A stretch of 64,000 nt of DNA from Eledone cirrhosa. Taxonomy: Eukaryota. A model generated the notes under the pieces. It was given only the letters and a program-made list of their open reading frames with translations, searched no databases and had not been told where the DNA came from. Positions 51,859-52,041 of this stretch are shown here, one piece after another (positions within the stretch are counted from its first letter, which is position 1; every line of letters begins with the position of its first letter). The position numbers and the translations under genes were made by a program. Location of the stretch: contig OZ024757.1 in assembly GCA_964016885.1 (NCBI GenBank), positions 37,138,001 through 37,202,000 of the forward strand, written 5' to 3'.

Positions 51859-52041
51859 GAAATGGCTTCTACAAGACTAGAACTGTTTCATTCGGGAGAA
51901 ATCATCAGGGCTTCCTGATGATTTCTCCCGAATGAAACAGTTCTAGTACTGTAGAAGCCTTTCTATATTAAATATTTATACTCTGCTATGTATTGAGTAC
52001 CTTACTTGCTGTGGTTACCCCCGATTGGGCCCGGGATAAAC
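51859..52041 (+). mobile_element. Family A fold-back hammerhead element in (TA)n; other copies at ~14325-14525, 34128-34295, 36476-36606, 39530-39675, 43945-44085(-), 52457-52640(-)
   Basis: ~50-bp near-perfect inverted arms around GGCTTC, then tail tactctgctatgtattgagtacc...gggataaac; seven copies, nearly all abutting TA repeats. Confidence 0.8.
51909..51959 (+). ncRNA. Type I hammerhead ribozyme (family A)
   Basis: GGCTTC-CTGATGA-TTTC(TCCC)GAAT-GAA-ACAG(TTCTAGTA)CTGT-A-GAAGCC: 6-bp stem I, weak stem II, 4-bp stem III, GUA cleavage triplet (cut after 51953). Confidence 0.8.

What the first reader, a model, noticed from the sequence alone, without database searches (positions are those of the whole stretch)
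51859..52041. Family A: complete hammerhead preceded by its own antisense copy
Seen: the left arm is the reverse complement of the ribozyme from CTGATGA through GAAGCC, and the centre is the stem I 5' strand GGCTTC. The copy at 36476 lacks the antisense arm, while 34128 and 39530 have central deletions. Inference: in a transcript the ~50-bp hairpin should out-compete the hammerhead fold, so fold-back copies would be self-silenced and tolerated in introns (14325 is in an epsin intron, 51859 in a ZDHHC intron, both sense).
Basis: partly seen in the sequence, partly recalled or inferred. Interest (0 to 1): 0.72.

Follow-up and report, generated by a model that had tools for sequence, protein, structure and literature searches.

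The report
Back-to-back stub of Penelope retrotransposon
This hairpin is one of thousands of tiny back-to-back copies of the ribozyme-bearing end of a Penelope-type jumping gene, likely made as a by-product of insertion; the mirror arm is predicted to switch the ribozyme off, but a limited sample of introns showed only a weak, non-significant sign that this matters to the host.

Summary
The hairpin is real: the arms match at 53 of 59 positions, and it out-competes the hammerhead fold by about 64 kcal/mol. It is the end repeat (pLTR) of a Hydra-clade Penelope-like retrotransposon. Plain copies run on into an RT/GIY-YIG-type ORF, and an intact sister subfamily exists. At least 4,798 such fold-backs occur across about ten subfamilies. 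In 41 of 50 listed, the longer arm stops 30-32 nt after the TATA box. The 69-bp tail sits on either arm (16:11 of 30). This is the published inverted-copy-plus-tail anatomy, likely built during insertion. Selection for self-silencing is not shown. In 1.31 Mb of oriented gene spans, unshielded intact hammerheads of all families were 8 sense:15 antisense (p 0.21), shielded one-strand copies 8:3 (Fisher p 0.066), and broken controls 14:17. Only about 2% of arms start at the cut site, so templates were mostly uncleaved. Earlier scan notes reported this architecture in other stretches of this genome.

The parts
51843..51858 (.). (TA)n target microsatellite, left flank; boundary with the arm is blurred by TATA microhomology
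   Evidence: sequence; tail end followed by a TA repeat in 48 of 56 scored copies
51852..51908 (-). Inverted, 5'-truncated pLTR copy (element positions about +7 to +63), no tail, no 5' stem I strand
51909..51914 (+). GGCTTC: hairpin centre, 5' strand of stem I, and predicted RNA start (+1), 30 nt after TATAAA in plain copies
51909..51959 (+). Type I hammerhead pattern: core CTGATGA 51915-51921, 3-bp stem II with U-U next to the core, GAAA 51934-51937, stem III, predicted cut after 51953, 3' stem I GAAGCC 51954-51959
   Evidence: activity untested
51960..51972 (+). End of the short arm form (near end site, TATTAAA)
   Evidence: tail-less arms stop here or a few bases earlier in (TA)n in the copies listed
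51973..52041 (+). One-sided 'tail' (far end site GGGATAAAC); in full-length copies it continues to the ORF start at +182
52456..52641 (-). Second fold-back copy in the same ZDHHC intron, tail on the truncated arm, core of the complete arm mutated (CTGATAA on +)
14307..14517 (+). Older-subfamily fold-back in an epsin intron; different centre, no complete hammerhead
34120..34291 (+). Fold-back copy with a central deletion in the right arm
36388..36610 (+). Single-arm copy with ~90 bp of promoter (TATAAA), hammerhead core broken
39511..39685 (+). Fold-back copy with both arms lacking the core
43941..44091 (-). Fold-back copy whose short arm begins at +45/+46, the predicted cut site
50237..50559 (+). 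Open frame holding the first ZDHHC coding exon found (host gene); the ~32-kb intron after it holds 51859 and 52456

Best explanation
The hairpin is a 190-bp non-coding insertion made of two truncated copies of the end repeat of a Penelope-like retrotransposon joined head to head, likely built during insertion and likely a by-product, not a selected ribozyme silencer. Shown: the sequence is the pLTR of a Hydra-type element; the arms end at two recurrent outer sites; the tail is on either arm; most junctions fall at +1 to +3. Inferred: the pLTR promoter (TATA at -30) starts an RNA at +1. The element's enzyme cuts a (TA)n site, and each cut end primes reverse transcription on that mostly uncleaved RNA, one from the near site and one from the far site. 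Both cDNAs run to the RNA's 5' end and are joined through 1-2 nt of microhomology, with one end trimmed. In a host pre-mRNA the product would fold as a hairpin of over 50 bp and the ribozyme would be off.
For: Window 51909-52041 matches the pLTR of L111 and L112 at 122 and 123 of 134 columns; in both the tail runs on into the ORF start. It matches the intact copy L122 at 113 of 134. L122 has pLTR-ORF-pLTR with hammerheads 4,963 nt apart and a 713-aa ORF. The ORF carries YRDD, a C-terminal Y..YIG motif, RWR, DKT, CxCx5C, CxxC and CxH, the Hydra signature of PMC8557442. Atlas neighbours score 0.96-0.99, some with GIY-YIG or RVT_1. L118 and L121 show long inverted 5' copies in front of intact ORFs. 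There are 4,798 exact-arm fold-backs. Both arms share the same stem II loop in 66 of 89 scored (17 differ by one base, 6 by more), across about ten loop subfamilies. In 41 of 50 listed, the longer arm stops at +1 to +3; 6 stop at +6 to +10, 1 runs upstream and 2 are unreadable (read by eye). TATAAA lies at -30 in both L111 and L122 although the spacer differs. For one exact junction the tail is on the complete arm in 16, the truncated arm in 11, both in 1 and neither in 2 of 30. About 24 arms start at the cut site against 1,353 full-centre matches with the same flanks. Published parallels: inverted 5'-truncated copy and either-end tail (PMC8557442, PMC3846280); two RT start sites, cleavage and extension of both strands, and unprocessed RNA as the main substrate (PMC11167929).
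Against: The RNA start is predicted from TATA spacing only; no RNA run was available. The junctions fit self-priming fold-back as well as two-primer joining; the either-arm tail favours two primers only if centres do not flip after insertion, which was not tested. Arms differ in the 3' indel variant in 8 of 47 scored copies, the focal one among them, which may be later mutation or two templates. Pfam support for the ORF is weak (GIY-YIG E 0.03-0.09, no RVT_1 hit) and the PDB gave no relative. No intact ORF of the exact subfamily was found; L111 has a stop at codon 39.
Confidence: 0.75

Rival explanations
1. Same origin, but selection filters the outcome: unshielded sense ribozymes harm host pre-mRNA, so fold-back copies are preferentially kept in sense introns.
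For: The hairpin out-competes the ribozyme by 63.7 kcal/mol. Unshielded intact 8 sense:15 antisense, shielded one-strand 8:3, Fisher p 0.066. Fast intronic ribozymes lower splicing and slow ones do not (Fong 2009 as cited in PMC10919898). Xenopus retrozymes are under-represented in introns (10.64898/2026.07.22.740005).
Against: None of the tests is significant. Broken single arms are 14:17, and intact versus broken gives p 0.58. Eight unshielded intact motifs persist in sense in conserved genes. About 98% of arms were copied through the cut site. Metazoan Penelope hammerheads tested so far are weak or protein-assisted (PMC4209133, PMC11167929). Only one plain intact copy of this family fell in the sample, and it was antisense.
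Confidence: 0.18
2. The second arm arises by self-priming: one cDNA reaches the RNA 5' end, folds back on a 2-bp hairpin and copies itself; later recombination between the arms flips the centre in some copies.
For: The commonest junctions can be drawn as 2-bp fold-backs with 3-4 nt loops (sequence). Arms mostly share subfamily variants. Self-priming was proposed for such palindromes in PMC3846280.
Against: It predicts the tail on the complete arm, yet 11 of 30 have it only on the truncated arm, which would need frequent flipping. Many junctions have both arms near-complete or carry extra bases. The cited paper placed self-priming on an antisense RNA, not on cDNA.
Confidence: 0.25
3. The fold-back is itself a mobile non-autonomous family (MITE- or retrozyme-like) amplified from a hairpin master copy.
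For: One junction recurs exactly in 102 matches.
Against: Junctions vary widely and recur separately in about ten subfamilies. The unit lacks the promoter, the tail side alternates, and it is not tandem as retrozymes are.
Confidence: 0.05

Closest known systems
Hydra clade of Penelope-like elements (Craig et al. 2021, PMC8557442)
   Same: [quoted passage not shown]
   Different: The hammerhead differs from the one listed for Hydra-1_Obim, and two family motifs were absent from the supplement text held (long runs are cut there). The unit is ~5 kb because of a long microsatellite-rich 3' region (published members are generally under 3 kb). The tail is 69 bp, not 30-40. Most copies are stubs of under 200 bp.
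Penelope insertions of Adineta vaga (Arkhipova et al. 2013, PMC3846280)
   Same: Head-to-head inverted pLTR, palindromic junction, optional tail on one of the inverted pLTRs, TATA and Inr-like motifs in the pLTR.
   Different: Here the whole insertion is the two pLTR ends, with thousands of copies and junctions concentrated at the predicted start. That paper favoured self-priming on antisense RNA.
Anolis Poseidon element PAc in vitro (Frangieh et al. 2024, PMC11167929)
   Same: Two RT start sites that define the tail, cutting and extension of both target strands, AT-rich targets, uncleaved RNA as the main template.
   Different: Different clade; inverted products and their junctions were not mapped in the parts read.
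Penelope-associated hammerheads (Cervera and de la Pena 2014, PMC4209133)
   Same: Type I hammerhead in the pLTR, many dispersed truncated copies, pairs on opposite strands 100-700 bp apart already noted.
   Different: This motif has a 3-bp stem II with U-U instead of the G10.1-C11.1 pair and a real stem III; the opposite-strand partner is directly fused.

Membership tests
EN+ Penelope-like element | pLTR-ORF-pLTR partial tandem sharing this end sequence | tested here: met
   L122 and L124 have two hammerhead/pLTR units flanking the ORF; the window copy matches at 113 of 134 (L122) and 122-123 of 134 (L111, L112)
EN+ Penelope-like element | ORF with RT and C-terminal GIY-YIG endonuclease | tested here: met
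   YRDD and Y..YIG motifs; Atlas neighbours with RVT_1 or GIY-YIG at 0.96-0.97; Pfam GIY-YIG only at E 0.03-0.09. Met for the sister subfamily; the exact subfamily shows only a broken ORF start.
EN+ Penelope-like element | Inverted 5'-truncated copy and tail at one end | tested here: met
   (tail on one side in 80 of 91 fold-backs, both sides 3, none found 8)
Hydra clade | RWK-type motif, DKT for DKG, no GxKF/Y | tested here: met
   RWR at 38, DKT at 116, no DKG, no GxK[FY]
Hydra clade | CxCx5C linker, CxxC and CxH near the C-terminus | tested here: met
   CxCx5C at 566, CxxC at 666, CxH at 694
Hydra clade | Insertion into (TA)n | tested here: met
   48 of 56 scored tail ends are followed by a TA repeat
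Hydra clade | Groups with Hydra families in an RT tree | not tested
Type I hammerhead ribozyme | Core C3-A9, G12-A14, NUH triplet, stems I and III | tested here: met
   stem I changes are compensatory between subfamilies (GGCTTC/GAAGCC vs AGATTC/GAATCT) and the stem II loop varies freely
Type I hammerhead ribozyme | Base pair 10.1-11.1 closing stem II (usually G-C) | tested here: not met
   U-U in all nine aligned copies; stem II probability about 0.1; no Rfam hit
Type I hammerhead ribozyme | Self-cleavage | not testable with these tools
   only an indirect hint: about 10 arms without repeat ambiguity start at +45/+46, against roughly 2 per neighbouring position (by eye)
Non-LTR retrozyme | Head-to-tail tandem units each with a hammerhead | tested here: not met
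   copies are head-to-head and dispersed

The most novel reading that the evidence does not exclude
The insertion geometry of a Penelope-like element neutralises its own ribozyme. Two-primer insertion leaves an antisense arm upstream of the hammerhead, selection removes unshielded sense ribozymes from introns while sparing fold-backs, and the thousands of junctions mark the element's capped RNA start and, rarely, its cut site.
Probability: 0.18. Interest if true: 0.68.

Novelty: new member of a known kind. Interest (0 to 1): 0.4.

Why it matters
How Penelope-like elements build their inverted ends and one-sided tails is stated as unresolved in PMC8557442 and PMC11167929. This family offers thousands of natural junctions, a predicted RNA start conserved in two subfamilies, and intact ORF copies, so the two-primer model is directly testable. 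The self-silencing idea would matter if genome-wide counts bear out the weak trend. As it stands the feature is ordinary transposon debris with a useful mechanistic record.

Tried and rejected
Rfam at gathering score: no hit in the window. Inverted-repeat listing: swamped by a (TA)-rich tract at 18.4-19.7 kb. Pfam on 146 of 372 window frames found only a weak UIM, so host genes were placed by motifs. Walking 5 kb upstream from 20 long copies did not reach the ORF; the link came from a tail that ran on downstream. Sequencing runs: no RNA holder listed. Three contig runs of one sample could not resolve the locus, so centre flipping and RNA editing were not tested. PDB search with the ORF: nothing under E 0.1. 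Earlier-findings search by sequence: nothing. One search's count (12 sense:20 antisense plain) was dropped because its 400-nt window missed long arms and it counted a tandem array five times. One search's collapse merged different families within 600 nt. One search is the count used. Helitron/MITE and parvovirus-like flip-flop readings were dropped once the pLTR and ORF were found. An extra G before +1 in some junctions may be a copied cap, but microhomology explains most cases; it was not quantified. The intron sample could not be enlarged beyond 1.31 Mb, so the orientation test stays underpowered.

Full report
Observation. At 51852-51972 the window holds a near-perfect palindrome centred on GGCTTC, followed on one side by a 69-bp extension ending at 52041, between TA-rich repeats. 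The left arm is the reverse complement of the hammerhead from the core onward (53 of 59). It folds at -87 kcal/mol with z -18. The + strand holds a complete type I hammerhead pattern. Its stem II is 3 bp with U-U beside the core, and Rfam does not list it. Both host-gene claims hold: epsin-like exons surround 14325 on +, and 51859 lies in a ~32-kb ZDHHC intron on +. But 14325 has another centre and no stem I, and 36476 has a broken core. Two copies are missing from the finding: 52456-52641, with the tail on the other arm and a mutated core, and 43941-44091.

What it is. Copies without the arm carry ~290 bp of shared upstream sequence with TATAAA 30 nt before GGCTTC. In L097/L111 and L112 the tail continues into an ORF start. 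A search with that stretch led to a young sister subfamily. Of 14 places fetched, six (L116, L117, L118, L120, L121, L122) hold a full open frame, and L124 holds one full and one shorter. L122 is pLTR-ORF-pLTR. Its 713-aa protein has YRDD, a C-terminal Y..YIG motif and the Hydra-clade signatures RWR, DKT, CxCx5C, CxxC and CxH. Atlas neighbours agree; Pfam is weak and the PDB blank. The window copy matches L111 and L112 at 122 and 123 of 134 columns, and L122 at 113 of 134. The ORF starts of L111 and L122 match at 228 of 255. Between the subfamilies stem I changes in a compensatory way and the stem II loop varies, as expected for a kept hammerhead fold. An earlier scan note calls this an octopus genome; I did not test that.

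How the hairpin forms. There are 4,798 fold-backs with exact 17-nt arms and centres of 22-52 nt (a lower bound). The family had 36 hits in ~1.25 Mb. Both arms usually carry the same loop variant (66 of 89 identical, 17 one change, 6 more), and about ten loop subfamilies each have their own fold-backs with varied junctions. So hairpins were made repeatedly from element RNA and not spread from one master. By eye, in 41 of the 50 listed the longer arm stops at +1 to +3, six stop at +6 to +10, one runs upstream and two are unreadable. The pattern would have admitted about 16 more upstream bases; longer-armed inversions also exist (L033, L040, L057, L118, L121). TATAAA is at -30 in L111 and L122 and -31 in L116, and absent in L098. 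I infer that +1 is the RNA start. For one exact junction the tail is on the complete arm in 16, the truncated arm in 11, both in 1 and neither in 2 of 30. A single cDNA folding back cannot give the second class without a later flip, whereas two separately primed cDNAs can. This fits the two RT start sites and two-strand extension reported for an Anolis element (PMC11167929; parts 1-2 of 4 read). It also fits the inverted copy and either-end tail described in PMC8557442 (passages, section 11 and supplement rows) and PMC3846280 (passages). The steps from RNA start to joined cDNAs are inferred, not shown.

Is the ribozyme active? With the same flanking pattern, 1,353 matches have full centres and 81 have short centres; gaps of 35-59 nt were not counted, and some copies match on both strands. 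By eye about 24 of the 81 have an arm starting at +45/+46, the predicted cut. Fourteen of these could equally be deletions between two GAAGCC repeats. The other 10 exceed the roughly 2 per position seen nearby, a hint only. So about 98% of these arms were copied from RNA uncut at the site. Metazoan Penelope hammerheads tested in print are weak (PMC4209133; parts 1-2 of 4 read) or protein-assisted (PMC11167929).

For selection I oriented 38 gene spans (myosin, kinesin, epsin, ZDHHC) and 30 exon-flank loci (SNF transporters) by colinear exon hits, 1,309,736 bases in all. These are not curated gene models. One 70-kb span was unsure and gave no motif. A generic hammerhead descriptor gave 66 hits against 1 in reversed sequence on the first 1.25 Mb, and 69 motifs in 49 insertions on the full set. 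Fifteen insertions have complete motifs on both strands. Unshielded ones were 8 sense:15 antisense (p 0.21, 95% interval for the sense share 0.16-0.57). Shielded one-strand ones were 8:3 (Fisher p 0.066 between the two). Broken single arms were 14:17 (intact versus broken p 0.58). These counts pool all families; this family gave only one plain intact copy, antisense. Print offers the premise only for fast ribozymes (Fong 2009, seen only as cited in PMC10919898, passages) and a general intron deficit of retrozymes (bioRxiv 10.64898/2026.07.22.740005; part 1 of 5 and passages; its supplements were not seen).

Novelty. The anatomy is published. Seven searches of the held library (listings only, apart from the papers named) showed no paper mapping Penelope inversion points to the RNA start or testing antisense shielding in introns. 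Most subscription papers are outside that library. Earlier scan notes on other stretches of this genome reached the same reading. I had the Penelope inverted-copy reading and the TATA spacing from my own calls; the notes gave me the Hydra lead, the twin-priming wording and the cut-site class, which I then tested here. Verdict: a new Hydra-type family whose stubs record the insertion mechanism; self-silencing is predicted, and its selective role is unproven. Interest 0.4.

Noticed in passing
window 55482-55526 (+): Plain minimal hammerhead of another family, sense in the same ZDHHC intron, with no antisense arm within 1.2 kb; its stem III is 2 bp and palindromic, so it likely needs a dimer.
   Followed up: partly
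window ~63510-63720: Fold-back of another hammerhead family with a long stem II insert; its complete motif is antisense to ZDHHC.
   Followed up: partly
window 37455 (-), 44384 (+), 56492 (+): Further CTGATGA motifs with hammerhead-like surroundings that did not pass the descriptor.
   Followed up: no
gene spans L131-L250: At least 29 distinct hammerhead-bearing sequence types in 1.31 Mb; 43 of 97 insertions are inverted pairs, so the architecture is general in this genome.
   Followed up: partly
L198 (C3:169.27 Mb): Five hammerheads in 310-bp tandem units joined to an inverted copy, a retrozyme-like array inside a myosin gene span.
   Followed up: no
L116-L124: A young subfamily with many near-identical intact 713-aa ORFs and a ~2.5-kb microsatellite-rich 3' region; possibly still active.
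   Followed up: partly
L004 and L005 (C1:26.51 Mb): A fold-back and its flank appear twice, inverted, about 2 kb apart.
   Followed up: no
L061, L079: Double junctions in which a piece of the hairpin centre is repeated, suggesting a template switch after a first fold or join.
   Followed up: no
window 18425-19683: A ~1.2-kb TA-rich tract that dominates inverted-repeat listings.
   Followed up: no
window ~3960-4450: A ~51-bp tandem repeat with open frames on both strands.
   Followed up: no
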